Shown: piece by piece, positions 1 through 13,825 of the stretch
Position numbering within the stretch: the first letter of the stretch is position 1
Layout: the number at the start of each line of letters is the position of its first letter
Source: Geomonas oryzisoli
GTDB taxonomy: Bacteria; Desulfobacterota; Desulfuromonadia; Geobacterales; Geobacteraceae
Assembly: GCF_018986915.1 (NCBI RefSeq)
Contig: NZ_CP076723.1
Coordinates: 3,964,228-3,996,227, forward strand
Length of the DNA stretch: 32,000 nucleotides
Reading direction: 5' to 3'
Made by a program: the position numbers and the translations under genes
Notes under the pieces: generated by a model
The model's input: the letters and a program-made list of their open reading frames with translations, nothing else
What the model was told of the DNA's origin: nothing
Database searches by the model: none

Positions 1-1277
1 ACCGGGTTGCCGTCCTGGAACATGATGGCGGGGATGGGGCCGGAGGGAGGATCGTAGACCCTGGTGACGGTCTCGGCGCCGGCGTCCTCGGGACAGAGCT
101 GCGGCTCGTCGGACAGTTCCTGGAGGGCGTCGTCGTGCCAGAACTCCACCGCGACGCGCCGGTTCAGCGCCCTCCCCTGCGGGGTGTCGTTGGAGGCCAC
201 CGGTTGCGTGGCGCCCTTCCCCTCGCTCTCGAAGGAGACCGGGGCACCCTTCAGGGCGTCCTGCACGGCGAGGGCGACGCGCCGGGCGACCGCCTTGGAG
301 AGTCCCGTCTGGTCGCCGTAGATGCGCTCGTCCCGCTCCGCCAGCGGCGTGGTGTCGCTGTAGGCGATGAACTTCACGGCGACGTGCTGCTTGCCGGAGA
401 GGTTGTTGAGCGCCTGCCTGATCTGGCGCGGGAACTCATCCGGCACGGAGACGAGGGCCGCGTCGTACTGCAGGGGGGCGACGAGGTTCTTGATCCGGAC
501 CCGGTGCGAGAGCCCTTCCTTGTAGCGCATCTTGCAGACCGTTTCGGTTCGGCAGATCTTGACCCGGTTCACCTGCGCCGGGACGATCACTTCCCTTTCC
601 ACCATCTTCTCGCCGATCTCGTCGTACCAGACCTCGACCTCAACCCGCCGGTTCAGGGCCCTCCCCTCCTCGGTGGCGTTGGAGGCGACCGGCTTGGCGT
701 CGCCCATCCCCTCGTAGGAGATCGCCTCCGGCGGAAGCCCCAGGGCGCGCTGGCAGTATTCTGCCGTGGTGCCGGCTCGCTCGCGGGACAGCCCGGTGTT
801 GTCGCCGAATTTCCCCTGCAGCGCCCCGCTCAGGCGCTGGCTGTCGGCGTGCCCCACGAAGTGGAGCCGGACGTTGGCGCGGCCGCGCATCTTCTCGAGC
901 ACGCCGCGCAGAAGCTCCAGGTACTCCCGGGTGATCTCCGCCTCGCCGGTGCGGAAGCGGATGGGGGGCACCAGGTCGGTCAGCTTGACCGTCTTCACGT
1001 CCTTCTCGGCGACCTTGCGCTTTTCGGTGCGGTCCCCCTGGTCCTGCGCAAACACGGACGGGTCGAGAAGCCACGGGGTATAGGTCGCTTCCTTGGGCAG
1101 ATGCCCCTCGGTCGTCTCACCGCGACCGGCGGCGTCCCGGACGTTGGGGGTCGTGGCCGCCGGCACGGCGGCAGCCTTGGCGACCGGCGCGGGTGTGCTC
1201 TCCGCACGGGCCGCGGGCCCGGCTGCGGCCAACGACACCAGGATCATGAATGTAAGGGCGATACGTCGCTTCACCAT
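1..1277 (-). CDS. OmpA/MotB-family envelope protein with two tandem OmpA_C-like peptidoglycan-binding domains; partial, C-terminus lies beyond the window start
   Basis: Absent from the ORF track because it has no stop in the window. The minus-strand frame is open from ATG 1277 (alternative in-frame ATG at 1286) to base 1; I checked that no TCA/TTA/CTA falls in that phase. The translation starts MVKRRIALTFMILVSLAAAGPAARA (signal peptide). It contains two OmpA-C signatures: ...VRLHFVGHADSQRLSG...GLSRERAGTTAEY...NATEEGRALNRRVEVEVWY and ...VKFIAYSDTTPLAERDERIYGDQTGLSKAVARRVALAV...NDTPQGRALNRRVAVEFWHDD. Confidence 0.8.
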   Translation of the reverse strand, partial: MVKRRIALTFMILVSLAAAGPAARAESTPAPVAKAAAVPAATTPNVRDAAGRGETTEGHLPKEATYTPWLLDPSVFAQDQGDRTEKRKVAEKDVKTVKLTDLVPPIRFRTGEAEITREYLELLRGVLEKMRGRANVRLHFVGHADSQRLSGALQGKFGDNTGLSRERAGTTAEYCQRALGLPPEAISYEGMGDAKPVASNATEEGRALNRRVEVEVWYDEIGEKMVEREVIVPAQVNRVKICRTETVCKMRYKEGLSHRVRIKNLVAPLQYDAALVSVPDEFPRQIRQALNNLSGKQHVAVKFIAYSDTTPLAERDERIYGDQTGLSKAVARRVALAVQDALKGAPVSFESEGKGATQPVASNDTPQGRALNRRVAVEFWHDDALQELSDEPQLCPEDAGAETVTRVYDPPSGPIPAIMFQDGNP

Positions 1278-1376
1278 TGGTCCCATCCATCTACCCAAAC
1301 AGGTTAGGTTCTCTTGCTGTCCCAATATCAATGCAGGTCACCGATCTTTAGCTGCACAGGTTTCTGCGCTTCCGTT

Positions 1377-1457
1377 CCCTCCCCCGGAGGGGGAGGGTTA
1401 GGGAGGGGGATCGCCGGAAGATTCCCCCCCTCCCGACCTCCCCCCTCCGGGGGGAGG
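1377..1457. repeat. C/G-tract hairpin repeat cluster (REP-like) between the giant gene and the OmpA gene
   Basis: Perfect palindrome CCCTCCCCCGGAGGGGGAGGG at 1377-1397, followed by TTAGGGAGGGGGA. A second hairpin CCTCCCCCC-TCC-GGGGGGAGG lies at 1437-1457. Both sit in the 207-nt gap between stop 1485 and start 1277. Confidence 0.6.
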
Positions 1458-1484
1458 AGCCCGCGCTTCTTACCGTCTGCTGCA

Positions 1485-4400
1485 TCACGGCGGCGCCCCC
1501 CGGCGCCAGAACACCTCGGTCTCGATGGTGAGCGGGTAGCCGTCCCCCCACTTGCCGGAGATCTCCGCCTTGAGCGCCTTGAGGCGCCGCTCCACCAGGG
1601 CCTTGCTCTCCACCTCGGCGAGGTAGGAAAGCCTGAGCACCGCCGGGGCCTTGCGCAACTCCTTCAAAAGGAGGTCGATCCGCGGCTGCCACTGCCTGCG
1701 CAGCCTGGTTCCGTTGGGTTCGAAGGCGCCGTCGGCGACGTCCAGGGAGACCACGTGGTGGATGGCGGCGCCGAAGTTGAAGCGCAGCATCTTGCCCCGT
1801 GTCGCCCGCTGCACCTGGGGGTTCTCGCCGGTGACGCGGTACCCGGTAGGGAGGGTGCGCTCGTCGAGCTTGAGGATGAAGTTGCTGCCCCGGTCCTGGT
1901 CCGGGACCATCGCGCAGGTGATGTGGAAGCGGCCGAACTCGTCGGTGGTGGCGACGAGCCCCCGGGCGGTCACGGCGCGCACACCGGCGAGCCCCTTTTC
2001 TCCCTGGTCCGGGTAGCCGTTGGTGTTGACGTCGTCAAACACCTTGCCGATCACGTCGGTGCAGTCGAGGTCCGCATCGGGGATGACGCGGACGGTCGCC
2101 GAGGCGACCCCGGAGGCGACGCTGTCGGTGATGTTGCTCAGCACCTGGGCGCGGTTCACGTACTCCCCTTCGGAGACGCCGGAGCCGACGATCATGAGGA
2201 AGGTGATGCTGTGGCTGGTGCTGCTGGTGAGCTGCGAGATGTTCCAGGTCATCTGGCGCGTGTTCTGCGTCGGCTCCGCCTTGCGGCCGTCCAGGCGCGC
2301 CGACCCCGCCACGTACTTGAATCCCGCCGGGAAAGTGTCCACCACGCTCAGGTCCCTGAGGGTCGCCCCCAGGGTGTTGTTGAGGGTGATGGTGTAGGGG
2401 ACCAGGGTGCCGCGCGACACGTCGGTCACGGCCGCGGTCTTGGTGATGGCGATCGCCGTGTTGAGCGTGGGATCGACGGCGATGTGGTTGTTGTAGATCT
2501 GGCTGTAGCCGGGCTGCAGGTTGTCCAGGGTAAGCCGCAGGTAATAGGCGGTAGCGGCGCCGGGGAGGACGGAGGTGCCGGGCGCCAGGTCGGAGGCCTG
2601 CGCCTCGCAGTACCCGGCCGTGGTCGGCACCGCGTCGAAGGCGCCGCCGGGGCAGGAGGGTACCGCGAAGGAGGCGGTGCTGTCGCTGGAGGCCGGGGGC
2701 ACCAGTTTCGAGACGCCCGCCGTGTACCCGGATGCCGGCGGCGTCACCTGGATCAGGTAATCCCCGCCGGAGGGGCAGGAAGGATCGCTGAAGTTGAGGT
2801 CGAACTTGTAGAGGCCGCTGGCCGTGGTGACCTGCCCCTGCTGCACCGGGTCATTGAAGCAGCTCGCGGCGAGAGCTGTCCTGCTTGCCGCCTGGACCAT
2901 GGTCAGCGTCGCGCCCGGCACCGGGGTGCGGACGATGGAGTTGTAGACCACGCCGTTGGGGGTGAGCGGCAGGTTCAGCCCCTGCAGCAGCGTCCCCCCT
3001 CCGGCCACGATGTCGGAGATGCGCTGCATGCCGTTGGTGAAGGGAGAGCTGCACCATCCCAAGAGGGCGGTGGCGGCGCCGGCGCCCGGCGCGCGGAAGC
3101 GGAGTTCATACCTGATCGCGGTGCCGGCGTTGGGGGTCACCCCGCTGAAGCGGTAGGAGCCGTCGGCGGAGCTGTTCACCGTCCCCACCGCGCGGCCGTC
3201 CTGGTACAGCTCCACCGCCCACCCCGCCGACGGGATCTCGCCGCCGTCAAGGACGTTGTCGTGGTTCGCGTCCTGCCACACCGAGCCGGCGAGGCTCGCA
3301 CTCCCCGGCATGCCGCCCACGGTGACCGCGGTCCCGGCGCTCGCCACCCGGGTGGGGGTGTCCCAGCTCGCCTGGGCGGTGTTGTTGACCACGCTGCCGC
3401 TGGACACGGTGGCGTTCAGCTTCACCTGGAAGCGCAGCGCGACGGAAGCACCCGGCGCCAGGGCGCCGTGGCTCGCGCCGTAGTTGGCAGTCAGGACCGG
3501 CGCCGCGTAACTGACCCCGCTGGAGGAGCCGTTCATGACAGCGGAGCCGGAGAGGTAGCTCCCCTGGGGCAGCAGCGGGGTCAGGTCGTCGGTCAGCACC
3601 ACGCCCGTAGCCGGGACCTGCCCTATGTTGGTGGCGCGCACCGTGTATTCCAGGATGCTCCCCGGCAGCGCGGCACCGCCGCCGACCACCACGGCGGACT
3701 TGGTGATGCTGAGCTGCTGGGCGTTCCCCACCGCGATCACCGTGGGCTGGTAGCCGTTGGCGGGGGTGCCGTCGGAGTCGGTGGCAAGCAGCGGCAGTTC
3801 CGCGCTGGCGACGCTCCCCTGGTTGCTGATCACGGTACCCGCAGCGACTCCCTGGTTGACCTGGACCTTGAAGGTTACGACACCGGTGCCGCCTGCCGCG
3901 AGTGTCCCGGCGGTCGCGGGGGGCGCGGGCGGGGTGACTCCCGGGGAGACGACACCGATGCCGTTGGTGAGGGGGGAAACTCCGGCCGCCGCGTCGGCTA
4001 CCGCCGCACCGTTCAGGCGTACGCTGTTCGGGACGTAGGTGGTGTTGGCGGGGATGGCGTCGGTGAACAGCACGCCGGTCGCGGGTGGCGCCCCCGAGTT
4101 GGTCATGGTGATGGTGTACTGGAGCTCGTCGCCGGGATCGACCAGGCCGTCGCCGTTGGCGTCGGCGACGAGCTGGACCGTCTTCAGCGCGTAGAGAAGC
4201 GGCAGGTTGCCGACGATCACGGTGGTCGGATCGTTGGGCACCGGCGTCGCCGGGTTGTCGGAAGCCTCTTCCGGGAACGGGCCGCTTGCCGCACCGGTCC
4301 CGGCCAGGAAGGCCTGATTGGAGATGAGGGTCCCGGCCACGACGCTCCTGCTGATCCTGACCTCGAAGGTGACGGTGGCCACGTTGCTCGCGGTACCGGC

Positions 4401-7400
4401 GGCCGCGGGCATGGTGCCCGGCACCGGGTTCGCGGGCGAGTTGACCGTCATACCCCCCTGCAGCGGGCTCGCAGCGCCGACGTCCGCCACCGGCTTGCCG
4501 TTCAGGGTGGTGCTGTTGGGGACATAGGCGGTGTTCGCGGGGACCTGGTCGCGCAGCGTGACCCCGGTCGCGTTCTCGGTGCCGTCGTTCTTGACGGTGA
4601 TGGTGTAGCGCAGCGTATCGCCCGCCTTGACCGTGGCGCTCCCGGAGGTAACGTCCCTGACCGTCTTCTGGAGCAGGAACCGCGGAGCCGACGCGATGAC
4701 GGTCCGGGTCGGGTCGGCCGTCCCCGGCAGCGAGGGGTCGTCGCTCAACTGCGACGGCAGCAGGGGGGACGCGACCTGCGCCTGGTTCTGCACCAGCGAA
4801 CCGCTGTCGAGCACCGGCGCCAGGGTGTCCTGGAACTCGACCAGCAGCACGTCACCCGCCTGCCCCTGCGGGGCCACGGTCAGGTTGCCGACGCTCACCA
4901 CCCCGGTCCCCTTGCCACCGCCGTTGACCGAGGTGGCGGCGACGTTCGCGCCGGCCGGGACGCTCAACAGCTTCAGCGTTCCGGGTGCGAACATGGCGGT
5001 CGCGTTCAGCTTGTCGAGTTCGTCGGTCAGGGTGAAGTTCGCCGCGCCCAGGGCGCCCACGTTGCGGATGGTGAGGGTGTACTTGAGGGTGTCGCCGGGC
5101 CTCGCGTTGGCACCGGACTGCCCGGTCGTTGCGTTCTGCACGGTCTTGGTGAAGCTCAAAAGCGGCGCCTGGGTGGTCACGGTGAAGGCGTCCTGGCTGT
5201 CGAGTACCCCGGGGGTGCCGTTGGTCAGCGCGGCGGTCGTGGCCTGTATATCCCCTGTAGCGGTGACCGCAGGGTCGGCGCTCAGCCACCTGGTGGCGCC
5301 CGCCACGTTGGTGAGGGTGATCCCCCCCGCCGTGTAGGGGTCGAGCGAGGCGCTGTACGTCACCAGCAGTCGCTCTCCCGGCGCGATGGCCGCCGCGGAC
5401 GACTTCATGGCGACGGTCATGGTGCAGGCGGGCGCGGGGGCGAAGCCCACGGTGAAGTCGGTGCCGTTCACGAGGTTCGCCGAGACGGGGGTGACCCCGT
5501 CGGCCTGGTAGACGCGCGCCGTGACGCCGGTCGGCGCCGAGCCGCACATGCTCCCCGGGGCGGGGGTGGTCACGCTGGGGAGGAGGTCGGTGAGGGTGGC
5601 CTGCCACGCGGTGCTGCCGCCGGTATTCTGGACGTTGAGCGTGAACAGGCCCGGGGCGAGCGCGTTGATGGTGGCCGGTCCGCTCTTTTGCACGGTCAGC
5701 GCGGGGCCGACGATGATGATCGCGGCGCTGGCGCCCGGCGCGCCGTTGGCCTGGGTGGCGGGGGTGCTGTTGACGCCGTTGTAGGTGTAGGTCGCCGTGT
5801 TCTGGAACTGCTTGCCGAGCGTGTTGGCGGCGGAATTGGTGAGCAGCACGGTGACGTTGATCACGGCCTGCTGGCCGGCCGGTATGTCGATGCCGCTGCC
5901 GCTGTCCTGGATCACGAGGCTCGTGGCGCTGCCGCTGTTGACCGGGGTGAAGGCAGGGCCGGAAACCCGCTGGACGCTCACGAAGCGCAGGTCCACCCCG
6001 GTCGCCGCGGCGCTCAAGTCGTCCAGGATGCGCACGTCGTACATGGCGGTGGGCTGAGGCACCGCGGGAACGGTGATGGTGTAGCCGAAGGGGCGGCCGA
6101 TGGCGGCGCTGGTCACCTGGGCCTGCTTCGAGAGCGCCGTGGCCGCCGCGGTGGTGAGCTGCACGGTGGCCGCGCTGGTCGGGCCGTAGAGCTGGCGGTT
6201 GGCGGGTACGCTCGCCGCCGGGATGTCCTGGCTGTCGAAGGAGTAGTAGCCGGTCACCTGCGCCTGGTTGTTCAGGGTCACCCCGGCGCCCAGCCCCGCG
6301 TCCCCCTTCACCTGGTAGGTCACCTGCAGGGTCTGCCCCGGGGGGACCGCGTAGAGCCCCGCCGAACCGGCCGCGTCGAAATTCCAGGTGGCGATACCGC
6401 TGGCCGCGCTGTAGCTCGGGGCGAGCGTGGGCAGGGTGGCGCTGGTCGTGCCGGTGGCGCTGTCCACGAGCGTGACGCCGGTGGTGGTGACGCCCCCCTG
6501 GCGCAGGCCGACCGGCAGGGTGTCGGCGAGGACCGGGTCGTAGGCCGGGGCGGTACCGCTGTTGGCCATCCTGACGGTGTAGGTGATCGCCTCGCCGGCG
6601 CTGATCACCGTGCCGCCGCCTGCCGTGGCCGCGCTCTTGGTGACGTTCAACAGCGGTTGCCAGACGTTCAAGGTGGCGCCGGAGTTCTTCGGGGTCGCGG
6701 CCACGCCGTTGATGGCGTAGTTGAGCGTGGCGCTGTTGACGAGCTGCTGCGCCGTCGGGGACTGCGCCAGCGCGTTCTTGACCACGTGGGCGCGGTACTG
6801 GATGGTGAGCGTGTTGTTCGCCGCGTTGTTGTCGGCCGTGTTGACGACGTTGCCCAGGTTCCAGGTCAGGGTGCCGGTGGCGCCGGGCGCTGGCTGGGAG
6901 GAGACCGTGTAGCTGAAATTGCCGCTCCCCGAGGCGGGGGCGATGCTCACCAGGGCGTCGTAGGCGAGGCCGGCCGGGAGCTGGTCGGTGAGCACCACGT
7001 TCTGCGTGGTCCCTTCCCGCAGGGTGAGGGCAAGGTTGTAGACCACGGTATCGCCCACCCGCACGGTCGCGTCGGTCGCACTCCCCGGTGCGGCGCTCCA
7101 GGAATCGGAGACCACGGTTTTGGCGAGGGCGGTCGGGTCCAGCGAGGAGACGGTGGCGGAGACCGGGCCGGAACAGTAGTTGTTGGGAAGGGTGGTGGCG
7201 GGGCAGCCGGCGCCTGTGCGTTCGCCGGGGACCGAGCCGGAGAGCGAGGTCCAGTCGACGTAGACGTCGTTGGTGATGGGGGCGCCGCTGGTCTCCAGCA
7301 CGGTCACCAGGTAGCTCAGCACCAGGGTCCCGCCGGCCGGGATGTCCAGGCTCGCGTCGCCGTTTTGGCTCCCCCAGTCCACGGCGCCGCTGGGAAGAGC

Positions 7401-10115
7401 GGCGGGCGTGGGCATGAAGCCGGTCACCGGCGCGCCGTTGATCTGCGCGGTGGCCGAGCCCGGTACCAGCGAGACGTTGGCGGGAAGGAAGTCCATGACG
7501 TCGGCATCGTAGGCCCGGGAGCCGCCGTCGTTGGTGACGGTGACGGTGTAGCGCAGGACGTCTGCGGGGGCCGCGGCGGCGGACGCGGCTTTCCCTGCCG
7601 GGGAGGCGTAGCCGACCGCCTTGGCCGCGGTGAGGTGCGGTTCGACCACCGTCATGTTGGCCGTGGTCGCCGCGCCGCCGGCCGACTGGGTCAGGCTGTC
7701 GCCGTTTAGCTTGTTGTAGGTGTAGGAAGCGGTGTTGCTGAAGCTGAGTCCAGCGCGGTTCGCACTGCTGTTCTGCAGTGCCGCCGTCACCTGGATAACC
7801 GCCTGCCCCCCCGCCGGTATGTCGATGCCGGTGGCGAGGTCCTGGAGGATGACGTTGGTCGCCGTGCCGGTGTTGGTGAGGTTCCAGTTGCCGCCGGAGA
7901 TGACGTCGGCACCGACGAAGCTCATGCCTGCCGCCGAGAGCCCCAGGTTGTCCAGTATCCTCACGTCGTAGAGCGGGACGTCCGCCGGGGTGGCGGGTAC
8001 CTTGATCAGGTAGCTGAACTGCTGACCGACGGTCGCCGTGGTCGAGGCAGGGTTCGCCTTGGAGAGTGCCCCCGGCGCCTGGATGGTGACCCTGGTGGGG
8101 TCTCCGCCGGAGCCGAGCAGCACGGTCCCATTGCTATAGGGATCGTCGCTCGGGCCGGCCCAGACCGTGACGGGGTTGGTGCTGGTGTCGGTCCCGGTGA
8201 CGCCGGCCTGGTTGGAGACGACGGTGCCGTTGGTGAGGGTCGCGTCGAGGGTCGCGTCGAACTCGACCTGGATCTGCGCAGTGGTGGTGGCGCCACCGGG
8301 GAGGGTGAGGCCGGAAACGGTGACGGACCCCGGGGTGCCGCCGCCGGGCTGGGTGACGCTCACCGTGCCGCCCGCCGGGGTGACGGTGACGTTGGAGACG
8401 GAGCGCAGCCCGGCCGGGAGGGTATCGGTGATGGTGACCCCGTTCAAGGGGGGCCAGGTGAAGTTCTGCAAAAGCAGGGTGTAGTGCAGCCGGTCTCCCG
8501 GAAAGGCCGCCGTGGCCGGATTGGCTCCGGTGGTCAGGTCGCGCACCGTCTTCTGGAAGTAGTAGCCTGCCAGCGCGGCGGTCACCGTGTAGGCATCCTG
8601 GAAGTCGAGGGTGCCGGGGGTGCCGTCGGTTATGGTCCGGTCGTACTCGCGGCGCCCGGGATAGCCGCTGTTGGCGCTGAACCACCTGGTGGCGCCGGCG
8701 ATGTTGGTGAGCGTCGCCCCCGAGGCGACCCCGGTGCTGTCGACCTGCGCCCGGTAGGTGACGATGAGGCGCTGGGTGGGGGCGATCTTGGCGGAATCGA
8801 GCAGGGTCAGGGTGAGCTGCCCGGGGGAACCGGGGCCGCCGCTCCAGGTGGTGGTGAAGTCGGTGCCGCTCACCAGCGGGGCCGACACCGGGGTCACCCC
8901 GTCGGAGGCGAAGACCTGGGCGCTGATGGTCCCGACCGGGGAGACGGTGCTCATGCCGGCCGGGATGTGGTCGGTGATGGTGGCGTTCCACGCTTCGCTT
9001 CCGCCGGTGTTCTGGACGTTGAGCGTGTACCTCACCTGTGAATCCATGTTGACCGTCGCAGCCGAACCGCTCTTGGTAAGGGTGAGGTTCGGCTCGACCA
9101 CCGTCATGGGCGGGGTGGTACCGGGCCATGCCTGCAGGTCCACCATGCTGGTGCTGTTGATCGGTTTGTTGAACCACATGTTGGCGGTGTTGGAGAACTG
9201 CGACCCCGCCTGGTTCACGCCGGCCGGGTTGCTGTCGAGGACGACGGTGACCTGGATCTCCAGGTTGTACCCTGCCGGGAGCGAGGCCAGCGCCGGGTTG
9301 TATTCGTAGGAGAAGACCAGGTGCCTGGTGGCGTCCGAGAGGACGCCGGGATGGCTGCTGAGCCAGCCGCCGCTCGCCCCGAGGGTGAGCGGCGCCCCTC
9401 CGTTGAGCGGCGCCCTCGCGCCGGTAGCGGGGTTCACGAGGTAGGCGGCGTTGGTCACGTAGCTCAGGGCGGCGCCCGTGGCGGTCAAGTCGTCGGGGAT
9501 GACCACGTTGGTCACCGTGGCGTCGTCGCTGTTGGCGATGTACTGGAACGTCCCCGTCGCGTCGAGTTTCCCCAAAAGCGGCACACTGATCGTATAGGTG
9601 AAGGGGACACCGACGGCGGCGGTGCTTTGCGCCGGGGGATTCTTCTTGCTCACCGCGTCGACCGGCACCATGAAGGCCTGGCAGGCCGGGCTGATGTTGT
9701 TGTACCCGCCCGGAGCCCAGTAGATCCAGAAATCGGACTGCGTCGGGTCGTTGCACGACATGTTGCCGTAATAAAAGACGTTCAGGAACGCGATGTAGTA
9801 GGATTGCTGCTGCGGGAAGTTGAAGTTTATGTTGGTGATCGGGAAGCCGCCGATGGAATCGGGGAAGTTCTTGATGGTGCAGTTGGTGTCGATCCCGAAG
9901 GTGGACGCCCCCCTGACCGCGGCGAGGGTGGCGGGGTTGTTGCCGTCGACCACGCCGCCGAACTGGGAGCAGAAGATCCCCGCTGCCCGGGCAGACGTGC
10001 CCCATCCGACCAGCATGACCAAAAGGGCGGCGGTCGCAGCCAGGCGCGCCACGGACCTGGCGGCGCCCATCCTGGCGGCGGCCATCGATAACATCAGCTT
10101 TGTCTGTGTCAGCAT
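1485..10115 (-). CDS. Giant secreted repeat protein (roughly 2,880 aa): N-terminal signal peptide, Cys-containing head domain, three isopeptide-D2-like modules, about eleven DUF11 (TIGR01451-type 'conserved repeat') domains, and two SdrD-B/Cna-B-like domains; putative adhesin or surface-layer component
   Basis: ORF 1485..10181 (2898 aa). The likely start is ATG 10115 ([46 protein letters not shown]); alternatives are 10094, 10085 and 10070. Recurrent DUF11 signatures are present (LTKSG...[81 protein letters not shown]). Cna-B-like segments are [16 protein letters not shown]...DGSYRFSGV and [23 protein letters not shown]...DEFGRFHI. There is no LPXTG motif, T1SS-type RTX repeat or autotransporter beta-domain. 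Confidence 0.9.
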   Translation of the reverse strand: [2876 protein letters not shown]

Positions 10116-10186
10116 TCTCACTTCTGCCCTCGATGAAGATCGCTCAACTACTGTTGCGGCCCTTGGCAGGCCGACCTGCACGCACC

Positions 10187-10236
10187 ACGAAAAAAACCCG
10201 CGCCACAGCCGGTACTTCGGCTGATGACGCGGGTTT
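10187..10236 (-). terminator. Strong rho-independent terminator between the 57-codon ORF and the giant gene
   Basis: The minus-strand RNA reads AAACCCGCG-uca-UCAGCCG-aaguac-CGGCUG-ugg-CGCGGGUUUUUUU. This gives 9-bp outer and 6-bp inner stems followed by a run of 7 U. On the plus strand the hairpin has no U-tract. Confidence 0.7.
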
Positions 10237-10308
10237 CACTTGCCCCGTAGGGATGAGACTTACCGCTGTTTCAATGCTGCTGTCGATTTTCCGGCCGGGG
10301 TGGCCGGG

Positions 10309-10482
10309 TCACTTCATTCTTTCGTTCCTGATCGCGTCGCAAACGCGGTAGTCGGCGATGTTCACCGTGACCTGCAGGTGCGGCGCGGAAAGAAGCCCGA
10401 TCTCCTTCATGCACTCGGTCAGCTTTCGTTTCCACTCCGGGTCAAGGGTTCGTTTGGTCAATTTTTCCATTGCATGCCTCAT
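10309..10482 (-). CDS. Hypothetical 57-aa protein, the first ORF downstream of the tandem riboswitches
   Basis: Not in the ORF track (below 60 aa). It runs from ATG 10482 (in-frame ATG 10470) to TGA 10311-10309. The RBS-like AGGAAAG sits 5 nt upstream. The translation is MRHAMEKLTKRTLDPEWKRKLTECMKEIGLLSAPHLQVTVNIADYRVCDAIRNERMK. No family was recognised. Confidence 0.45.
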   Translation of the reverse strand: MRHAMEKLTKRTLDPEWKRKLTECMKEIGLLSAPHLQVTVNIADYRVCDAIRNERMK

Positions 10483-10499
10483 GTAACTTTCCTAGGGAT

Positions 10500-10539
10500 A
10501 AAAAAAGAGCGCTCCCATCTACCGAAGATGAGAGCGCTC
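10500..10539 (-). terminator. Intrinsic terminator of riboswitch unit A (promoter-distal unit)
   Basis: The minus-strand RNA is GAGCGCUCUCAUCU-ucggu-AGAUGGGAGCGCUC followed by UUUUUUU. One position is a G-U wobble on the minus strand but a C-A mismatch on the plus strand, which fixes the functional strand. Confidence 0.8.
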
Positions 10540-10575
10540 CTAGATCGGGGGGGGTGCCGGATGCCAAGATGCTGA

Positions 10576-10661
10576 CTCATCTCTTCGGCAACCCGGCTAT
10601 CCTTCACAGGACCCGTGGCTTTGCGTCACCAGATCACTCTGGTTTTGCCCGTTCGGAGAAC
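10576..10661 (-). promoter_or_regulatory. GEMM-I (c-di-GMP-I family, Rfam RF01051-type) riboswitch aptamer, unit A
   Basis: The minus strand reads GUUCUCCGAACGGGCAAAACCAGA-GUGA-UCUGGUGACGCAAAGCCACGGGUCCU-GUGA-AGGAUAGCCGGGUUGCCGAAGAGAUGAG. It has the conserved GCAAA(A)CC box, a GNRA-capped P1 hairpin, the GACGCAAAGCC core, a P2 hairpin and the GGUUGCCGA 3' strand. Confidence 0.85.
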
Positions 10662-10702
10662 GTATTCTGTTTTAAATCGCGCCGACGCCTCGCGGAGCCA
10701 AT

Positions 10703-10741
10703 AAAAAAAGGCGCTCCCATCTGCCAAAGATGAGAGCGCCT
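10703..10741 (-). terminator. Intrinsic terminator of riboswitch unit B (promoter-proximal unit)
   Basis: The minus-strand RNA is AGGCGCUCUCAUCU-uuggc-AGAUGGGAGCGCCU followed by UUUUUUU. It carries the same minus-strand-only G-U wobble as unit A. Confidence 0.8.
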
Positions 10742-10774
10742 CTTGATCGGTAATAGCGGATGCCAAGATGGGAA

Positions 10775-10862
10775 CTCATCTCTTCGGCAACTCGGCTATC
10801 CTCATTCAAGGACCCGTGGCTTTGCGTCACCAGATCACTCTGGGTTTGCCCGTTCGGAGAAC
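10775..10862 (-). promoter_or_regulatory. GEMM-I (c-di-GMP-I family) riboswitch aptamer, unit B
   Basis: The minus strand reads GUUCUCCGAACGGGCAAACCCAGA-GUGA-UCUGGUGACGCAAAGCCACGGGUCCU-UGAAUG-AGGAUAGCCGAGUUGCCGAAGAGAUGAG. It has the same architecture as unit A, about 200 nt upstream of it. Confidence 0.85.
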
Positions 10863-10891
10863 TTTTTTAACAATTTGTAATCGACGGCCAC

Positions 10892-10920
10892 CTTTTAGCA
10901 GATGGCTTAACGCTTTGCAA
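10892..10920 (-). promoter_or_regulatory. Candidate sigma70 promoter for the tandem-riboswitch transcript
   Basis: The minus strand has TTGCAA (10920-10915), a 17-nt spacer and TAAAAG (10897-10892). It is preceded by A-tracts with repeated ATTGT (UP-element-like). The predicted start lies about 20 nt upstream of aptamer B, the same geometry as the 11676-11704 promoter. Confidence 0.4.
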
Positions 10921-11023
10921 CAATTTTTTTTCACAATCGCGGCAATTTTTTACAATCGCCGCGGCCACCGGCCGGAAAGCTTCTTTGGCCGCCGGGGCCG
11001 GGGAGGGAAAACCCGGCATGGTT

Positions 11024-11437
11024 TCAAGCGGTTTTGCACCGCCCCCCTGACAGGTCCCCCACGAACGCCCCCAGCTTCGCATCGCATTCGCGGATGTGGT
11101 GATTGACCCAATGGTCCAGGATAACCAGTTGGTCGATGCTCAGGCTGGCGCTCGCGGTTCGAGGCGTGCGGATGTCTATCATCCTCTGCCTGAAGATCTC
11201 ATGTTCATCCCTGTGCGCCAGGAAATCGGGATAGCAGGTGTCCATCATCAGCATCTGCTCGTAGTCGAAACACTGCGCCATGTACACCAGGATCTCGTCG
11301 AAGATGTACCCGTCCGGAGCCGGGCCTGTCATAAAGCGGTCATACGCTTCATTTATCTTCTCAACCACGTACTTGTGACACTGATCGATGTCTTCAATAC
11401 CGACCACCAGGTCTGAGGTCCATTTCGTGTTAAACAT
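11024..11437 (-). CDS. Hemerythrin-like metal-binding protein (bacteriohemerythrin family), 137 aa
   Basis: ATG 11437 is preceded by GGGAGGG 3 nt upstream; the track's 11449 start is a GTG inside the RBS. Hemerythrin motifs are present: W..DLVVGIEDIDQCHK, HRDEHEIF and WVNHHIRECDAKLG. Confidence 0.8.
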   Translation of the reverse strand: MFNTKWTSDLVVGIEDIDQCHKYVVEKINEAYDRFMTGPAPDGYIFDEILVYMAQCFDYEQMLMMDTCYPDFLAHRDEHEIFRQRMIDIRTPRTASASLSIDQLVILDHWVNHHIRECDAKLGAFVGDLSGGRCKTA

Positions 11438-11541
11438 AAGCCCTCCCACGGCATCATGCCAAGCACCCGAACGTTCACACTGGATATTTTGTCGTATCGA
11501 AACCGGCCCATGCCATGCTGGTCTCCCTGCGCCTGAACGCG

Positions 11542-11649
11542 AAAAAGCCGGGGCTTCGATATCAGGAGTGATATTTCGGCGACCCGGCTGTCTCGGTGAG
11601 ACCCTTTAGGCTTTCCGTCCCATCCTCGCGGATGGTTTAGTATTTTCGT
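11542..11649 (-). promoter_or_regulatory. Variant GEMM-I-like cyclic-dinucleotide aptamer (about 11573-11649) plus a putative terminator-type expression platform (11542-11589), in the hemerythrin leader
   Basis: The minus strand reads ACGAAAAUACUAAACCAUCC-GCGA-GGAUGGGACGGAAAGCCUAAAGGGUCUC-ACC-GAGACAGCCGGGUCGCCGAAAU. It has the GEMM-I layout (AAACC box, GNRA hairpin, GAC-G-AAAGCC core, second hairpin, AGCCGGGU.GCCGA). The canonical GC...GC closing pairs are replaced by the covarying CU...GG. The aptamer strand AGCCGGG (11589-11583) can instead pair with CCCGGCU (11552-11546), which is followed by UUUU. Confidence 0.55.
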
Positions 11650-11675
11650 GTATCGGTTCTTGTTATTGCGGACGC

Positions 11676-11704
11676 AACATAGCGCAGCAAGGCAAGCGTG
11701 TCAA
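11676..11704 (-). promoter_or_regulatory. Near-consensus sigma70 promoter for the hemerythrin leader
   Basis: The minus strand has TTGACA (11704-11699), a 17-nt spacer and TATGTT (11681-11676). This places the start about 20 nt upstream of the variant aptamer. Confidence 0.6.
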
Positions 11705-11821
11705 TGACATTTAATGTGCCGTACCCTAGCGTGCGGGCGAAACGGCAGCTTCCAAGGCCTGATCCCACCACCCCGATCCGGCCTTGGTCAAAACTGCCGC
11801 GGCACGGTGCACACGGGCCGC

Positions 11822-12103
11822 CTACTTGCCCCCCCCGAGAGCGCTCTTCACCTTCTTCAGCGTGTCGATGTTCTTCTGAAGGCCGCTCACGTTCTTCTCC
11901 ATTTCGGTGATGGTGGTGCCGAGCTGGGCCACGCTGCCGATGATGCCTCCGCTGCCGGCCGCCCTCTGCAGCAGTTCGTTGCCCAACTCTCCCATCTGGG
12001 CGTTGGCACGCTGCTCGCTGATCGAGCCGCAGAGGTATCCCGCCACAAAGACCACGGCAAAGGCCGCGACCCGCAAACTGTAGACGACGCTTTTCTGTTT
12101 CAT
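11822..12103 (-). CDS. Hypothetical small exported or membrane-anchored protein, 93 aa
   Basis: ATG 12103 has GGGAGG 7 nt upstream; the track start at 12142 lacks an RBS. There is an N-terminal hydrophobic segment (MKQKSVVYSLRVAAFAVVFVAGYLCGS) followed by a helical region. It lies 54 nt downstream of the 12158-12445 gene, so the two are likely co-transcribed. Confidence 0.65.
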   Translation of the reverse strand: MKQKSVVYSLRVAAFAVVFVAGYLCGSISEQRANAQMGELGNELLQRAAGSGGIIGSVAQLGTTITEMEKNVSGLQKNIDTLKKVKSALGGGK

Positions 12104-12157
12104 GTCAGTTCCTCCCATGACCCGATGCCTTATCACCGCCACGCCCGGTTGCTCACC

Positions 12158-12445
12158 CTACTTTTTCTTTTCCTTCTTCTCCGGCTTGGCGGCAGCCTCC
12201 TTGGCCTCGATACTGGCGGCTTTCATGGTGTACATGATGGTGACCTTGCTGCCGACCTTGATGTCGCCGGTGACCTTGGTGTCCTTGTCCTTGGCGATCT
12301 GCCACTTCTCGCTCCCCTTCTGAACTACGATCATGTCGTCCTTCACTTCGAGTACCGGCCCGGTCACCTGATAGCTCTTGGGAGCGGCATAGACGGTCGT
12401 TGCGGCAAGCAGAGTGATCCCCGTTAAAGCTGCGACAAGTTTCAT
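12158..12445 (-). CDS. Hypothetical small secreted protein, 95 aa, with a Lys/Glu-rich tail
   Basis: The RBS AAGGAGGA lies upstream of ATG 12445. The signal peptide is MKLVAALTGITLLAATTVYA/AP. The core is beta-rich (KVGSKVTIMY) and the tail is EAKEAAAKPEKKEKKK. Confidence 0.7.
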   Translation of the reverse strand: MKLVAALTGITLLAATTVYAAPKSYQVTGPVLEVKDDMIVVQKGSEKWQIAKDKDTKVTGDIKVGSKVTIMYTMKAASIEAKEAAAKPEKKEKKK

Positions 12446-12486
12446 ACTGTTTCCTCCTTGAGAGTTGTGAGTGCTGGAACGCTACA

Positions 12487-12514
12487 TTGATAACAGCTTA
12501 CCGCCGCAAGTCAA
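12487..12514 (-). promoter_or_regulatory. Candidate sigma70 promoter for the two-gene small-protein operon
   Basis: The minus strand has TTGACT (12514-12509), a 16-nt spacer and TATCAA (12492-12487), about 40 nt upstream of ATG 12445. Confidence 0.45.
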
Positions 12515-12568
12515 ACCGCTGCGGGTCATGACTCCGGATCCCCCTACCCTTTGACCGACGCCGCCCCT

Positions 12569-13393
12569 CTAGCAGGCAAAGGGTTTTTGCAGCATTATCG
12601 TCTGCACCGGCATCGGCGCCGGGAAGCCTGCGGCAGCGAGGCTCTCACGGATCACCTTGTTACCGTCGAAATAGACCTGCCAGTAGTGGTCATTGTGACA
12701 ATACGGCCGCACAGCGAGCACCGGGCCGAGCGCGGTGAATTCCAGGATATCCACCTGCACCTGGGGATCGGGCAGTACGTTGGGAACCTGGGCGAGCTTC
12801 TCCCGCAAGAGAAGCATGGCGGCAACGTGGTCGGCATCGCCGGAAAGCTGGCACTTCATTTCGACCCTCCTGAACGGGTTGGTCGAATAATTCTGGATGG
12901 TGTCGCTGAAGATCTTGTTGTTGCCGACCATGGTGAGGACGTTGTCCGCCGTGTTGATGGAGGTTATGAACAGCCCGATCTCCTTGATGGTCCCGGTCAC
13001 CCCTGCGGCTGTCACGAAGTCGCCGACCTTGAACGGGTGCAGCACGATCAGGAAGATGCCTGCGGCGAGGTTGGCGAGCAGGCCGCCCCAGGCGGCGCCA
13101 ATCGCGATGCCGACACCGGCGACCAAGGCTGCGAAGGTCGTGGTCTGAATGCCGCAGTAGCCGAGGATGGCGACCACCAGGACGATGTTGAGGGTGACGG
13201 ACACGAAGTTGCCGATGTAACGCATCAGGGTGGGATCGACCTTCTGCCTCTCCAGCACCCCCTGCAGCATGCGCCCGACCAGACCGATGAGCCAGCGTCC
13301 CACGAGCCAGAACAGGATCACTGCGACAAGTTTGGTGCCGTACTCGGTGGCATACGTCACTGCGAGTTGCTGATACTGCCCCACGTTGTCCAT
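12569..13393 (-). CDS. Small-conductance mechanosensitive channel (MscS family), 274 aa
   Basis: ATG 13393 is preceded by AAAGGAGGA. There are three N-terminal TM helices. The MscS pore and beta-domain signature is AGVGIAIGAAWGGLLANLAAGIFLIVLHPFKVGDFV...GTIKEIGLFITSINTADNVLTMVGNNKIF. Confidence 0.85.
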   Translation of the reverse strand: MDNVGQYQQLAVTYATEYGTKLVAVILFWLVGRWLIGLVGRMLQGVLERQKVDPTLMRYIGNFVSVTLNIVLVVAILGYCGIQTTTFAALVAGVGIAIGAAWGGLLANLAAGIFLIVLHPFKVGDFVTAAGVTGTIKEIGLFITSINTADNVLTMVGNNKIFSDTIQNYSTNPFRRVEMKCQLSGDADHVAAMLLLREKLAQVPNVLPDPQVQVDILEFTALGPVLAVRPYCHNDHYWQVYFDGNKVIRESLAAAGFPAPMPVQTIMLQKPFAC

Positions 13394-13468
13394 AGTTCCT
13401 CCTTTTACGGTGTGGCTGCCTCCTGCACTTGAAGTTCTCCAGCGGGTAACAAGTTGCAAAATAGGTCA

Positions 13469-13496
13469 ATTTTACACTCACAGTACCCTTTTACAA
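13469..13496 (-). promoter_or_regulatory. Possible sigma70 promoter for the MscS gene
   Basis: The minus strand has TTGTAA (13496-13491), a 16-nt spacer and TAAAAT (13474-13469). It was matched by eye only. Confidence 0.3.
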
Positions 13497-13578
13497 TCCA
13501 CGTGTGCCAGTGGCCGGAATCGGCAATGTCACTGCAAGGAAGGGTTATGTCAGTGCTACACCTATGGTCGCCGAGCCT

Positions 13579-13615
13579 AAAACAAAAAGGGGGCACCGCT
13601 CACGCGGCGCCCCCC
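13579..13615 (-). terminator. Orphan rho-independent terminator on the minus strand, with no minus-strand CDS upstream
   Basis: The minus-strand RNA is GGGGGCGCCGC-guga-GCGGUGCCCCC followed by UUUUUGUUUU. The nearest upstream minus-strand CDS is about 1 kb away, beyond two plus-strand genes. Confidence 0.55.
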
Positions 13616-13809
13616 TTCAATTGCCCATCGTAGCAGCTACGCCAGATGCCGCTGCCGTGCTGTTCGCCCCTGGTCAGATTTGTCGGTCGAGGCACCATAC
13701 CTCATTTGAGGTAGCGCATGAAGCAAATAAGGCATGATTTCGTCTCCCGCGCTGGCAGGTAAAAATTTATTTCCTGCGACATCAGCAGGTTAGCAACTTT
13801 TTTCAAAGC

Positions 13810-13825
13810 TGGCACGACTGATGCT
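13810..13825 (+). promoter_or_regulatory. Sigma54 (RpoN) -24/-12 promoter
   Basis: TGGCAC-GACTG-ATGCT follows the GG-N10-GC spacing of the TGGCAC-N5-TTGCW consensus. It sits 43 nt upstream of ATG 13868. An inverted repeat CCTGC-N7-GCAGG lies about 30-45 nt further upstream. Confidence 0.6.

What the first reader, a model, noticed from the sequence alone, without database searches (positions are those of the whole stretch)
1..10115. Giant Sec-dependent DUF11/Cna-B repeat protein in a diderm context, paired with a two-domain OmpA partner and no recognisable export or anchoring signal
The protein has a classical N-terminal signal peptide, so it is neither a T1SS substrate nor a TPS TpsA.

After the signal peptide come:
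- a roughly 110-aa Cys-containing head domain
- modules resembling Gram-positive pilin isopeptide-forming D2 domains
- about eleven DUF11 domains
- two Cna-B-like domains
- a charged helical C-terminal tail of about 90 aa (LRRQWQPRIDLLLKELRKAPAVLRLSYLAEVESKALVERRLKALKAEISGKW...)

The protein has no beta-barrel, LPXTG motif or lipobox.

The next gene encodes an exported protein with two OmpA_C domains. A plausible model is that the C-terminal helical tail docks onto the OmpA-like protein, tethering a fibre of stacked Ig-like domains to peptidoglycan. How it would cross the outer membrane is unexplained within this window.
Basis: partly seen in the sequence, partly recalled or inferred. Interest (0 to 1): 0.65.

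Follow-up and report, generated by a model that had tools for sequence, protein, structure and literature searches.

The report
Giant fibre, mega-barrel, Glt-type motor
The giant repeat protein is real, and its neighbour is not a small OmpA protein but a 1,708-residue outer-membrane barrel; these two genes are kept next to a proton-driven Tol/Glt-type motor in hundreds of bacterial species, which gives a testable job to a motor whose function has been unknown since 2011.

Summary
The giant gene (window 1485-10115, minus strand, 2,876 aa) is as described. It has a Sec signal, a novel Cys-containing head, about 13 CLIPPER/DUF11-type isopeptide domains, two SdrD-B-like domains, and no LPXTG, lipobox or RTX motif.

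The "two-domain OmpA partner" is a window-edge artefact. The full gene encodes 1,708 aa: a signal peptide, one canonical and two divergent OmpA-like domains, Ig-like domains, and a predicted outer-membrane beta-barrel of about 890 aa.

Nine further co-directional genes follow. They are the Agl/Glt "core complex" of Luciano et al. 2011 (GltC/D/E/G plus TolQ-TolR-TolR), whose function is unknown.

- **Linkage:** the fibre's conserved C-terminal module lies directly upstream of the barrel gene in 71 of 71 loci.
- **Gene order:** the nine core genes follow in Thermodesulfobacteriota and Nitrospirota. In all four Gamma/Betaproteobacteria checked they precede the fibre gene.
- **Co-occurrence:** barrel and GltD-like orthologues co-occur in 23 of 25 positive genomes out of 201 sampled.
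- **Fusion:** a paralogue in the same genome fuses stalk, barrel and OmpA domain.

Best reading: a surface fibre switched on by c-di-GMP riboswitches, threaded through or docked in its own barrel, and served by the motor.

I found no paper describing the link. This scan noted the same system earlier on another genome (e1-2993085).

The parts
1485..10115 (-). Gene A: giant fibre protein, 2,876 aa from the ATG at 10115 (alternative starts: GTG at 10181; ATG at 10094 as called in the public collection).
   Evidence: ORF and translation. Pfam and NCBIfam hits. 2,589 relatives share the C-terminal module.
9984..10115 (-). Sec-type signal peptide (aa 1-44, ...GWGTSARA|AG).
   Evidence: Read from the sequence. 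It is the only strongly hydrophobic stretch and has no lipobox.
9132..9983 (-). Distal head: a ~100-aa domain with four conserved Cys, followed by the first isopeptide-type domain (invariant K113, D164-D165, N265 in alignment A4).
   Evidence: No Pfam or PDB sequence match. Conserved at 32-96% in 80 of 120 relatives.
2199..9131 (-). Stalk of tandem CLIPPER/DUF11, CLIPPER_2, DUF7619 and DUF7927 type domains, one SdrD_B-like domain (about 3081-3296) and a ~200-aa Cys-containing insert.
   Evidence: Pfam on ten overlapping pieces. Ten Lys..Asp..Asn triads in register, plus three with Asp and Asn only.
1488..2198 (-). Conserved proximal module (last 237 aa): end of the last CLIPPER domain, an SdrD-B/CnaB-like domain and the final tail.
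   Evidence: 61-93% identical in 74 loci. AlphaFold2 model with pLDDT 81. Best fold matches are SdrD structures, E 5e-7.
1488..1757 (-). C-terminal tail (~90 aa), predicted beta-alpha-beta-alpha-beta; candidate docking piece.
   Evidence: pLDDT 83-93. Absent from the fused paralogue, where a Pro/Ala linker joins the stalk to the barrel. Only a weak profile match to an OmpA-like domain (E 0.11).
1..1277 (-). Gene B, 5' part only (first 425 of 1,708 aa): signal peptide, conserved N-terminal peptide, OmpA-like domains 1 and 2, start of domain 3. The rest lies left of the window (L009:14151-19277).
   Evidence: Family is 54-91% identical over 1,700 aa.
1374..1460 (.). Dispersed palindromic REP-like repeat in the A-B spacer.
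   Evidence: More than 45 copies in the same genome at 77-90% identity, some matching on both strands. No terminator-like site on the minus strand in the spacer.
10783..10860 (-). c-di-GMP-I riboswitch aptamer 1, with a terminator-like hairpin at 10706-10744.
   Evidence: Rfam RF01051, 61.5 bits against gathering score 35. Terminator scan.
10583..10658 (-). c-di-GMP-I riboswitch aptamer 2 (GGC type), with a terminator-like hairpin at 10505-10541, about 390 nt upstream of gene A.
   Evidence: Rfam RF03167, 62.6 bits against gathering score 59. Terminator scan. Similar aptamers lie upstream of gene A in Geotalea, a Desulfuromonadales MAG and a Nitrospirota MAG.

Best explanation
Gene A and the truncated "OmpA" gene B are the first two genes of an 11-gene envelope system in a Geomonas genome.

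**Proposed mechanism**
- A is exported by Sec. It is a long, isopeptide-stabilised fibre with a fast-evolving distal head and a highly conserved proximal module.
- B is its dedicated outer-membrane partner. A very large C-terminal barrel gives the route through, or the socket in, the outer membrane. N-terminal OmpA-like domains fix the assembly to peptidoglycan.
- The C-terminal module of A stays at the cell-proximal side and docks non-covalently on B.
- Genes C to K energise or organise assembly from the inner membrane. They comprise a secreted protein, GltC-, GltD- and GltE-like TPR proteins, a small protein, a TolQ/AglR-like channel, two TolR/ExbD-like proteins and a GltG-like TonB-type arm.
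- Tandem c-di-GMP riboswitches switch expression on.

**Status of each step**
- Shown: gene content, domain content, conserved linkage, co-occurrence, the fusion paralogue and the riboswitches.
- Inferred: surface exposure of A, passage through or docking in B, and what the motor does (secretion, gating or tensioning).
For: **Gene content**
- B is 1,708 aa. OmpA-like domain 1 scores 66.8 bits. The last ~890 aa are predicted as 35 or more long antiparallel strands whose fold matches only large outer-membrane barrels: BtuB, MtrB, LptD, FimD and SprA.
- Downstream genes give TPR, MotA_ExbB and two ExbD hits, plus an AgmX/PglI C-terminal domain at 57 bits against a cut-off of 40.
- Their sizes and order equal Gura_3070-3077 and GM21_0438 onward in Table S3 of Luciano et al. 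2011.

**Linkage**
- The same 11-gene order occurs in Desulfuromonas soudanensis and in a Desulfobacteraceae MAG.
- The A tail lies directly upstream of B in 71 of 71 loci, with a median gap of 62 nt. Genes C-K are complete downstream in 40 of 52 loci.
- In the 12 Pseudomonadota loci without C-K downstream, all four that I checked have C-K immediately upstream of A on the same strand.
- On the B tree the gene order changed at least twice while linkage was kept.
- In one sample of 201 genomes of the order, B and GltD-like orthologues are found together in 23, singly in one each, and both are broken in one genome.

**Fusion and conservation**
- A paralogue in the same genome fuses the last CLIPPER plus SdrD_B (matching A 2551-2760) through a Pro/Ala linker to a B-type barrel (matching B 810-1704) and an OmpA domain. 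This fused class recurs in other taxa.
- Conservation gradient: tail 61-93%, whole A about 45% and head about 36% in a Desulfobacteraceae MAG.

**Regulation**
- Riboswitches are present here and recur upstream of A in other lineages.
Against:
- The barrel model has only moderate confidence (mean pLDDT 67.6, pTM 0.53). Its best TM-score to any solved barrel is 0.22. Strand number, closure and lumen size are therefore not established.
- No complex prediction was possible, so A-tail to B docking and GltG-like to B coupling remain inferences.
- Paralogous nine-gene cores (25-60% identical) stand alone without A or B in three gammaproteobacterial genomes. The motor therefore has, or once had, a job that does not need this fibre.
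- One genome in the sample has B without a detectable GltD-like orthologue (G054).
Confidence: 0.55

Rival explanations
1. A and B form a self-sufficient two-gene adhesin system, an autotransporter-like "split" of the fused paralogue. The nine core genes are a separate envelope system, such as a Tol-like outer-membrane maintenance machine, that merely shares an operon or island with them.
For: - The fused paralogues in the same genome have no core genes beside them; their neighbours are a histidine kinase and other repeat proteins.
- Stand-alone core paralogues exist without A or B.
- Type V systems need no dedicated energy source (established knowledge).
Against: - Linkage survives at least two rearrangements of gene order across phyla.
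- Phyletic co-occurrence is 23 of 25, and both parts have decayed in G088.
- Among the loci and genomes examined I saw no complete genome carrying orthologous A-B without C-K.
Confidence: 0.2
2. The system is a surface-motility or force-generating apparatus. A is a substratum adhesin, and the motor pulls on the A-B complex as in Myxococcus focal-adhesion gliding.
For: - The core genes are homologous to the Agl-Glt machine (PMC3169522).
- Myxococcus gliding couples the motor to outer-membrane barrels and an adhesin, CglB (10.1101/2020.07.22.216333).
Against: - The Group A genes needed for gliding (gltA, B, F, H, I, J, K) give no hits in the cluster.
- Luciano et al. argue that the core alone does not drive motility.
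- B carries up to three peptidoglycan-binding-type domains, which suggests a fixed rather than a travelling complex.
Confidence: 0.1
3. A is not surface-exposed. It is a periplasmic or cell-wall-associated structural fibre, and the system as a whole tethers or spaces the outer membrane, like an enlarged Tol-Pal/OmpA network.
For: - A has only a Sec signal.
- B has OmpA-like domains.
- The GltD-like protein matches the Tol-Pal protein YbgF/CpoB at 105.9 bits against a cut-off of 90.1.
Against: - A varies from 1,600 to 4,380 aa among relatives. About 20 Ig-like domains in a row would far exceed the width of a periplasm (inference).
- The distal head evolves fast, as environment-facing tips do.
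- c-di-GMP control is typical of adhesion and biofilm genes.
- The stalk is fused N-terminally to a barrel in the paralogue, which is the layout of an autotransporter passenger.
Confidence: 0.1

Closest known systems
Agl-Glt "core complex" (gltC, gltD, gltE, gltG, aglR, aglQ, aglS) of Luciano et al. 2011, PLoS Genet (PMC3169522), the ancestor of the Myxococcus gliding and Nfs spore-coat machines.
   Same: Genes D, E, F, H, I, J and K of this locus are that complex. Sizes and order equal Gura_3070-3077 and GM21_0438 onward in their Table S3. The GltG-like protein carries the AgmX/PglI C-terminal domain above its cut-off.
   Different: - The published set stops at gltC. It does not include gene C, the barrel B or the fibre A, and its function is stated as unknown.
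- Scores against the Myxococcus GltE and GltG equivalog models are far below cut-off.
- The gliding-specific Group A genes are missing.
CLIPPER (DUF11) fibrillar adhesins, for example Acinetobacter silvestris B9T28_05395 with its C-terminal OmpA-like anchor (PMC12617251; PDB 9IFR).
   Same: Tandem CLIPPER and CLIPPER_2 stalk with Lys-Asp-Asn triads, an N-terminal putative adhesive head, and association with OmpA-like peptidoglycan-binding domains in a Gram-negative organism.
   Different: - Here the anchor is a separate 1,708-aa protein with a giant barrel, linked to a motor cluster.
- That paper does not address export (the word "secretion" does not occur in it).
- The fused paralogues in this genome (L109, L110) may be the closer counterpart of the Acinetobacter protein. 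I did not compare them.
Type V secretion: classical autotransporters, two-partner secretion, and intimin/invasin with a periplasmic LysM domain.
   Same: A Sec-exported passenger plus an outer-membrane barrel, with a peptidoglycan-binding domain on the periplasmic side. The fused paralogue has a passenger-linker-barrel order like type Va.
   Different: - There is no TPS domain, POTRA domain or autotransporter barrel family hit.
- The barrel region is about 890 aa, against 12-16 strands in type V.
- A dedicated proton-motor cluster accompanies the pair.
Type IX secretion: the SprA translocon, the GldLM proton motor and the PorE OmpA-like anchor.
   Same: Sec-dependent large surface adhesins, a very large barrel, a proton-motive-force motor of the MotAB/TolQR superfamily, TPR lipoproteins and a peptidoglycan-binding component. 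SprA is among the fold matches (8gl6_A).
   Different: - A has no T9SS C-terminal sorting domain, and no T9SS family hits were found.
- The TM-score to SprA is only 0.22.
- The organisms are Thermodesulfobacteriota, Nitrospirota and Pseudomonadota, not Bacteroidota.
- This is analogy, not homology.
T1SS giant adhesins with auxiliary parts: LapA held in LapE by a retention module, and SiiE with the SiiAB proton channel.
   Same: A giant Ig-repeat adhesin held at the outer membrane by one terminal module, c-di-GMP control (LapA), and a MotAB/ExbBD-like proton channel attached to an adhesin system (SiiAB, 10.1101/641415).
   Different: - A has an N-terminal Sec signal, no RTX repeats and no ABC transporter, MFP or TolC genes nearby.
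- c-di-GMP acts here through riboswitches.
Tol-Pal and Ton systems.
   Same: TolQ/ExbB-like and TolR/ExbD-like proteins with the transmembrane Asp, a TonB/TolA-like arm, YbgF-like TPR repeats and OmpA-like domains.
   Different: - All equivalog cut-offs are missed: TolQ 67 against 221, TolR 36 against 127.
- There are two TolR-like genes.
- There is no TolB, no Pal and no TonB-dependent receptor family hit.

Membership tests
CLIPPER/DUF11 isopeptide-domain fibrillar adhesin | Tandem PF01345 / TIGR01451 / TIGR04226 domains above curated cut-offs. | tested here: met
   223 bits against 24.6; 319 against 24; 237 against 30. Eight to ten stretches each.
CLIPPER/DUF11 isopeptide-domain fibrillar adhesin | Lys...Asp...Asn triad in the order and rough spacing of 9IFR (K715, D748, N806). 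| tested here: met
   A motif scan finds 10 complete triads (K to D 33-43 residues, D to N 61-93) plus 3 with D and N only. This is a motif-level test only.
CLIPPER/DUF11 isopeptide-domain fibrillar adhesin | Isopeptide bonds actually formed, and protein exposed on the cell surface. | not testable with these tools
   Needs mass spectrometry and surface labelling.
Agl-Glt core complex (Luciano 2011) | gltC, gltD, gltE, gltG, aglR, aglQ and aglS homologues clustered in one co-directional block. | tested here: met
   Pfam and NCBIfam hits and gene order. Same sizes and order as Gura_3070-3077 in their Table S3.
Agl-Glt core complex (Luciano 2011) | TonB-like arm carrying the AgmX/PglI (GltG/GltJ-type) C-terminal domain. 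| tested here: met
   NF033768 scores 57 bits against a cut-off of 40 on residues 414-503.
Myxococcus-type gliding (Glt) or Nfs machine | Equivalog-level GltE and GltG, plus Group A genes gltA, B, F, H, I, J, K. | tested here: not met
   GltE 28.9 bits against 225; GltG 42.5 against 650. No hits for the other Glt models among the cluster proteins.
Type V secretion (autotransporter / TPS / intimin) | TPS domain in the cargo with a POTRA-Omp85 partner, or an autotransporter/intimin barrel family. | tested here: not met
   No such Pfam or NCBIfam family among the hits of A or B.
T1SS RTX adhesin (LapA/SiiE type) | No Sec signal; RTX repeats and C-terminal secretion signal; adjacent ABC transporter, MFP and TolC genes. 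| tested here: not met
   A Sec signal is present and there is no GGxGxD motif. The neighbours are TPR, TolQR-like and GltG-like genes.
Sortase-anchored Gram-positive pilin or MSCRAMM | C-terminal LPXTG sorting signal with a hydrophobic tail. | tested here: not met
   No LPXTG anywhere and no C-terminal hydrophobic stretch.
T9SS cargo and translocon | C-terminal T9SS sorting domain on the cargo; SprA/PorV family partners. | tested here: not met
   No such family hit. SprA matches only as a generic big barrel, TM-score 0.22.
OmpA-like peptidoglycan-binding domain (protein B) | PF00691 above its gathering score. | tested here: met
   Domain 1 scores 66.8 bits against 27.2. PDB profile hits fall on OmpA, MotB, TssL and YfiB domains.
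OmpA-like peptidoglycan-binding domain (protein B) | Second and third copies are also OmpA-like. | tested here: inconclusive
   Scored alone, domain 2 gives 21.1 bits (E 4e-4) and domain 3 gives 14.3 bits (E 0.054). Both are below the gathering score. By eye domain 3 lacks the usual Asp.
Outer-membrane beta-barrel (protein B, residues ~810-1708) | Closed transmembrane barrel of antiparallel strands. | tested here: inconclusive
   The model has 35 or more long strands and matches only outer-membrane barrels (E about 1e-6). Mean pLDDT is 67.6 and TM-scores are at most 0.22. I could not inspect the coordinates.
Tol-Pal system | Equivalog TolQ, TolR, TolA, TolB and Pal. | tested here: not met
   TolQ 67.4 bits against 221; TolR 35.8 against 127.3. 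No TolB or Pal model is hit. Only the YbgF-type TPR repeats pass their cut-off.

The most novel reading that the evidence does not exclude
This is a previously undescribed outer-membrane export and assembly pathway. Sec-exported giant isopeptide fibres are threaded through a dedicated barrel of about 40 strands. A Tol/Ton/Glt-type proton motor drives or gates the process, reaching the barrel through a GltG-like arm and TPR lipoproteins. [quoted passage not shown]
Probability: 0.33. Interest if true: 0.9.

Novelty: new variant of a known kind. Interest (0 to 1): 0.72.

Why it matters
**An open question becomes testable.** The Agl/Glt core complex has been called a conserved machine of unknown function since 2011. 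[quoted passage not shown] Finding that one large orthologous branch of it is always tied to a giant Sec-dependent fibre and a dedicated mega-barrel gives a concrete cargo and outer-membrane partner. Several carriers are cultivable: Geotalea uraniireducens, Citrifermentans, Geomonas, Alcanivorax nanhaiticus and Alkalilimnicola ehrlichii.

**It proposes an anchoring route.** It offers an answer to how CLIPPER-type fibrillar adhesins of Gram-negative bacteria, recognised only in 2025, are anchored.

**It bears on environmental microbiology.** It points to a c-di-GMP-controlled attachment organelle in metal-reducing and iron-oxidising environmental bacteria.

Tried and rejected
- **Tail as a degenerate OmpA-like domain.** The only profile-profile match puts tail residues 153-201 on the start of B's third OmpA-like domain, at E 0.11 and probability 0.5%. 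The fold search of the module was dominated by the SdrD-B part and gave no OmpA-like hit. Unproven, so dropped as a claim.
- **PDB sequence searches.** The whole giant protein and the head profile gave no hits. The B profile hit only OmpA-like domains.
- **Literature.** Searches for a described link between DUF11/isopeptide adhesins and ExbBD/TolQR/Glt clusters found none. The 2025 paper on periplasmic force transducers does not mention GltG or this cluster.
- **Known routes.** T1SS, TPS/autotransporter, T9SS and sortase routes were considered and rejected on missing defining features.
- **Neighbours of the stand-alone cores.** I looked for a hidden cargo beside the stand-alone gammaproteobacterial cores. 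They have housekeeping neighbours (a pdxB-like gene, a helicase) and, in one case, a PD40 beta-propeller protein.
Full report
**1. What is in the window**

The minus strand carries one very long ORF from 10181 or 10115 down to 1485. From the ATG at 10115 it encodes 2,876 aa. The public collection holds the same protein called from the next ATG, at 2,869 aa.

| Family | Score (bits) | Cut-off | Stretches |
|---|---|---|---|
| DUF11, now named CLIPPER (PMC12617251) | 223 | 24.6 | 8 |
| TIGR01451 | 319 | 24 | 10 |
| TIGR04226 isopeptide-forming D2 | 237 | 30 | 8 |
| SdrD_B | 35 | 29.7 | 1 |

DUF7619, DUF7927 and DUF7507 (CLIPPER_2) also match. Scanning ten overlapping pieces places these domains along residues ~340-2690 and leaves the first 328 residues without any family.

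A motif scan finds ten Lys...Asp...Asn triads in the order of the solved CLIPPER domain, plus three with Asp and Asn only. The N-terminus is a signal peptide and the only strongly hydrophobic stretch. There is no LPXTG, lipobox or RTX nonapeptide.

The gene is 68-72% G+C, against 55-65% in the flanks.

**2. The partner gene is cut by the window edge**

The window is G000:C1:3964228-3996227 of a complete 4.85-Mb genome. The genus is Geomonas: the closest named relatives are G. nitrogeniifigens/diazotrophica at 91%.

Reading 18 kb further left (L009) shows that the "two-domain OmpA protein" is the first quarter of a 1,708-aa protein, B. Its layout is:

- a signal peptide and a conserved ~45-aa N-terminal peptide;
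- one canonical OmpA-like domain (66.8 bits);
- two divergent copies (21.1 and 14.3 bits when scored alone);
- beta-sandwich domains;
- a C-terminal region of about 890 aa.

An AlphaFold2 model of residues 530-1708, built on 80 homologues, has mean pLDDT 67.6. It predicts Ig-like sandwiches followed by at least 35 long antiparallel strands. Its only structural matches are large outer-membrane barrels (BtuB, Cir, MtrB, LptD, FimD, SprA, SlpA) at E about 1e-6, with TM-scores of 0.22 or less. It is therefore barrel-like but close to none of them. Sequence profiles find nothing in the PDB beyond the OmpA-like domains.

**3. Nine more genes follow on the same strand**

| Gene | Size (aa) | Features |
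|---|---|---|
| C | 246 | secreted protein |
| D | 672 | TPR and coiled-coil protein |
| E | 1,078 | TPR lipoprotein; YbgF-type repeats 105.9 bits against 90.1 |
| F | 239 | TPR lipoprotein; weak GltE match |
| G | ~100 | small protein with a signal or anchor sequence |
| H | 212 | MotA/TolQ/ExbB protein |
| I, J | 166, 165 | ExbD/TolR proteins, each with the transmembrane Asp |
| K | ~500 | one transmembrane helix, Pro/Lys-rich linker, AgmX/PglI (GltG/GltJ-type) C-terminal domain at 57 bits against 40 |

This is the "core complex" of Luciano et al. 2011 (PMC3169522). Their Table S3 lists Gura_3070-3077 and GM21_0438 onward with the same sizes and order, assigned to gltG, aglS, aglQ, aglR, gltE, gltD and gltC.

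That paper calls the function unknown. [quoted passage not shown] Neither includes the fibre, the barrel or gene C.

**4. The linkage is conserved**

*Family size and conservation.*
- The taxa include Geobacteraceae, Desulfuromonadales, Desulfobacterales, Nitrospirota, Thiohalomonas, Alkalilimnicola ehrlichii, Alcanivorax nanhaiticus, Moraxellaceae and Sideroxydans/Sideroxyarcus.
- The last 237 aa of A are found in 2,589 proteins of 1,600-4,380 aa.

*Adjacency.*
- In all 71 loci that have upstream DNA, this module lies directly upstream of B, with a median gap of 62 nt.
- Of 52 loci with at least 9 kb downstream, 40 have C to K complete and in the same order. The other 12 are all Pseudomonadota and have none downstream.
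- In four of those 12 genomes I fetched the upstream DNA. The order there is C-D-E-F-G-H-I-J-K followed by A on the same strand (the A head is seen in two of them). In Alkalilimnicola ehrlichii the C-D-E genes end at a contig edge.

*Phylogeny and co-occurrence.*
- On a tree of B, the two orders need at least two changes. Linkage therefore survived independent rearrangements.
- In one sample of 201 genomes of the order, high-identity B is found in 24 and the GltD-like orthologue in 24, with 23 in common. The two singletons are assemblies at 90% and 85% completeness.
- In one genome both genes are broken.
- Only 11 of 23 sampled genomes of the same genus carry the system, so it is an accessory trait.

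**5. A fusion supports the stalk-barrel connection**

The same genome has two distant paralogues of the barrel. One (L109, 1,878-1,890 aa) reads as follows:

1. signal peptide;
2. CLIPPER domains;
3. SdrD_B, where residues 319-525 match A 2551-2760 at E 2e-25, the best match to any part of A;
4. a Pro/Ala-rich linker;
5. a barrel matching B 810-1704;
6. an OmpA domain.

In that protein a covalent linker takes the place of A's final beta-alpha-beta-alpha-beta tail. Relatives of this fused class occur in other Geomonas species and in MAGs labelled Burkholderiales and Pedobacter.

The second paralogue (L110, 2,268 aa) also combines DUF11, OmpA and a barrel-like part. It is followed by an 887-aa SpaA_3/DUF7933/DUF11 protein.

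**6. The ends of A**

- The C-terminal module models well (pLDDT 81). It comprises the end of a CLIPPER domain, an SdrD-B/CnaB-like domain (best fold matches are SdrD, E 5e-7) and a compact beta-alpha-beta-alpha-beta tail with pLDDT 83-93.
- My idea that the tail is a degenerate OmpA-like domain got only a weak profile match (E 0.11) and remains unproven.
- The head (~285 aa) has four conserved Cys and an invariant Lys/Asp/Asn set in its second half. It is conserved in 80 of 120 relatives, but at only 32-40% in distant ones. It has no PDB sequence relative.
- The gradient runs from a fast head through an intermediate stalk to a slow tail. It fits a distal, environment-facing tip and a proximal, machine-facing base.

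**7. Regulation**

Two c-di-GMP-I riboswitch aptamers, each followed by a terminator-like hairpin, lie 390-750 nt upstream of A. Aptamers of the same class precede A in Geotalea (two), a Desulfuromonadales MAG (one) and a Nitrospirota MAG (two). None was found in the three other loci searched.

The A-B spacer holds a palindromic repeat present more than 45 times in the genome and has no terminator-like site on the coding strand.

**8. Interpretation**

*Shown:* the genes, their domains, the conserved 11-gene unit, the co-occurrence, the fusion and the riboswitches.

*Inferred:*
- A is a surface fibre.
- Its tail docks on B, or its stalk passes through B's barrel.
- B fixes the assembly to peptidoglycan.
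- The motor, reaching the outer membrane through the GltG-like arm and the TPR lipoproteins, energises export, gating or tension.

*Counterweights:*
- Paralogous nine-gene cores stand alone in three gammaproteobacterial genomes.
- The barrel model has moderate confidence.

*Odds:* I put the 11-gene functional unit at about 0.9, surface display through B at about 0.65, and motor-driven export as such at about 0.35-0.4.

**9. Comparison and novelty**

The system works like a hybrid of an autotransporter or two-partner adhesin (passenger plus barrel) and a Glt/Tol/Ton-type trans-envelope motor. It also has functional analogies to T9SS and to LapA or SiiE systems.

It is a member of the CLIPPER adhesin class and of the Luciano core-complex class. 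It fails the defining features of type V, T1SS, T9SS, sortase, Tol-Pal and Myxococcus gliding systems (see the membership table).

I found no paper linking the core complex to this fibre and barrel.

Within this scan the same system was noted earlier on another genome (e1-2993085). I had reached the same reading independently before that look-up. This report adds the permuted gene order, the co-occurrence table, the stand-alone paralogues, the fusion paralogue and the tail model.

Noticed in passing
window 1374-1460: Palindromic REP-like repeat of about 85-90 nt in the A-B spacer. It has more than 45 copies in this genome at 77-90% identity, some matching on both strands.
   Followed up: partly
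L109:8932-14601 (G000:C1:1620931-1626600): A 1,890-aa paralogue in which CLIPPER domains, SdrD_B, a B-type barrel and a C-terminal OmpA domain are fused in one protein. A 436-aa DUF11 protein precedes it and a histidine kinase lies close downstream.
   Followed up: partly
L110:5719-12522 and 12546-15206 (G000:C1:4143718-4153205): A 2,268-aa protein combining DUF11, OmpA and a partial B-like barrel, followed by an 887-aa SpaA_3/DUF7933/DUF11 protein. This may be a third fibre-barrel system in the same genome.
   Followed up: no
L105-L108 (Moraxellaceae MAG, Alkalilimnicola ehrlichii, Alcanivorax nanhaiticus): A second, paralogous nine-gene core (C to K, 25-60% identical) stands alone without a fibre or barrel gene. 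In two genomes it lies next to a pdxB-like gene. In Alkalilimnicola it lies downstream of a 966-aa PD40 beta-propeller protein.
   Followed up: partly
G088:C4:1744126-1753400 (same family, another genus): The system appears to be decaying as a unit. The B match carries five in-frame TGA stops and the GltD-like gene is split into three pieces.
   Followed up: no
G025, G106, G111, G198, G201 (same order): A B-like subfamily at 41-44% identity, in open frames of about 610 to 1,550 aa, occurs in genomes with no GltD-like orthologue at E 1e-50. Its partners are unknown.
   Followed up: no
window 11575-11651 (-): A third c-di-GMP-I class aptamer (45.3 bits) sits ahead of the small gene at about 11024-11449, separate from the tandem pair that precedes the giant gene.
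   Followed up: no
window 1-10000 against 10001-14000: The giant gene and the start of B are 64-72% G+C, while the adjoining leader and small genes are 56-58%. This may reflect the Ala/Gly/Thr/Pro-rich repeats, or horizontal acquisition given the patchy distribution.
   Followed up: no
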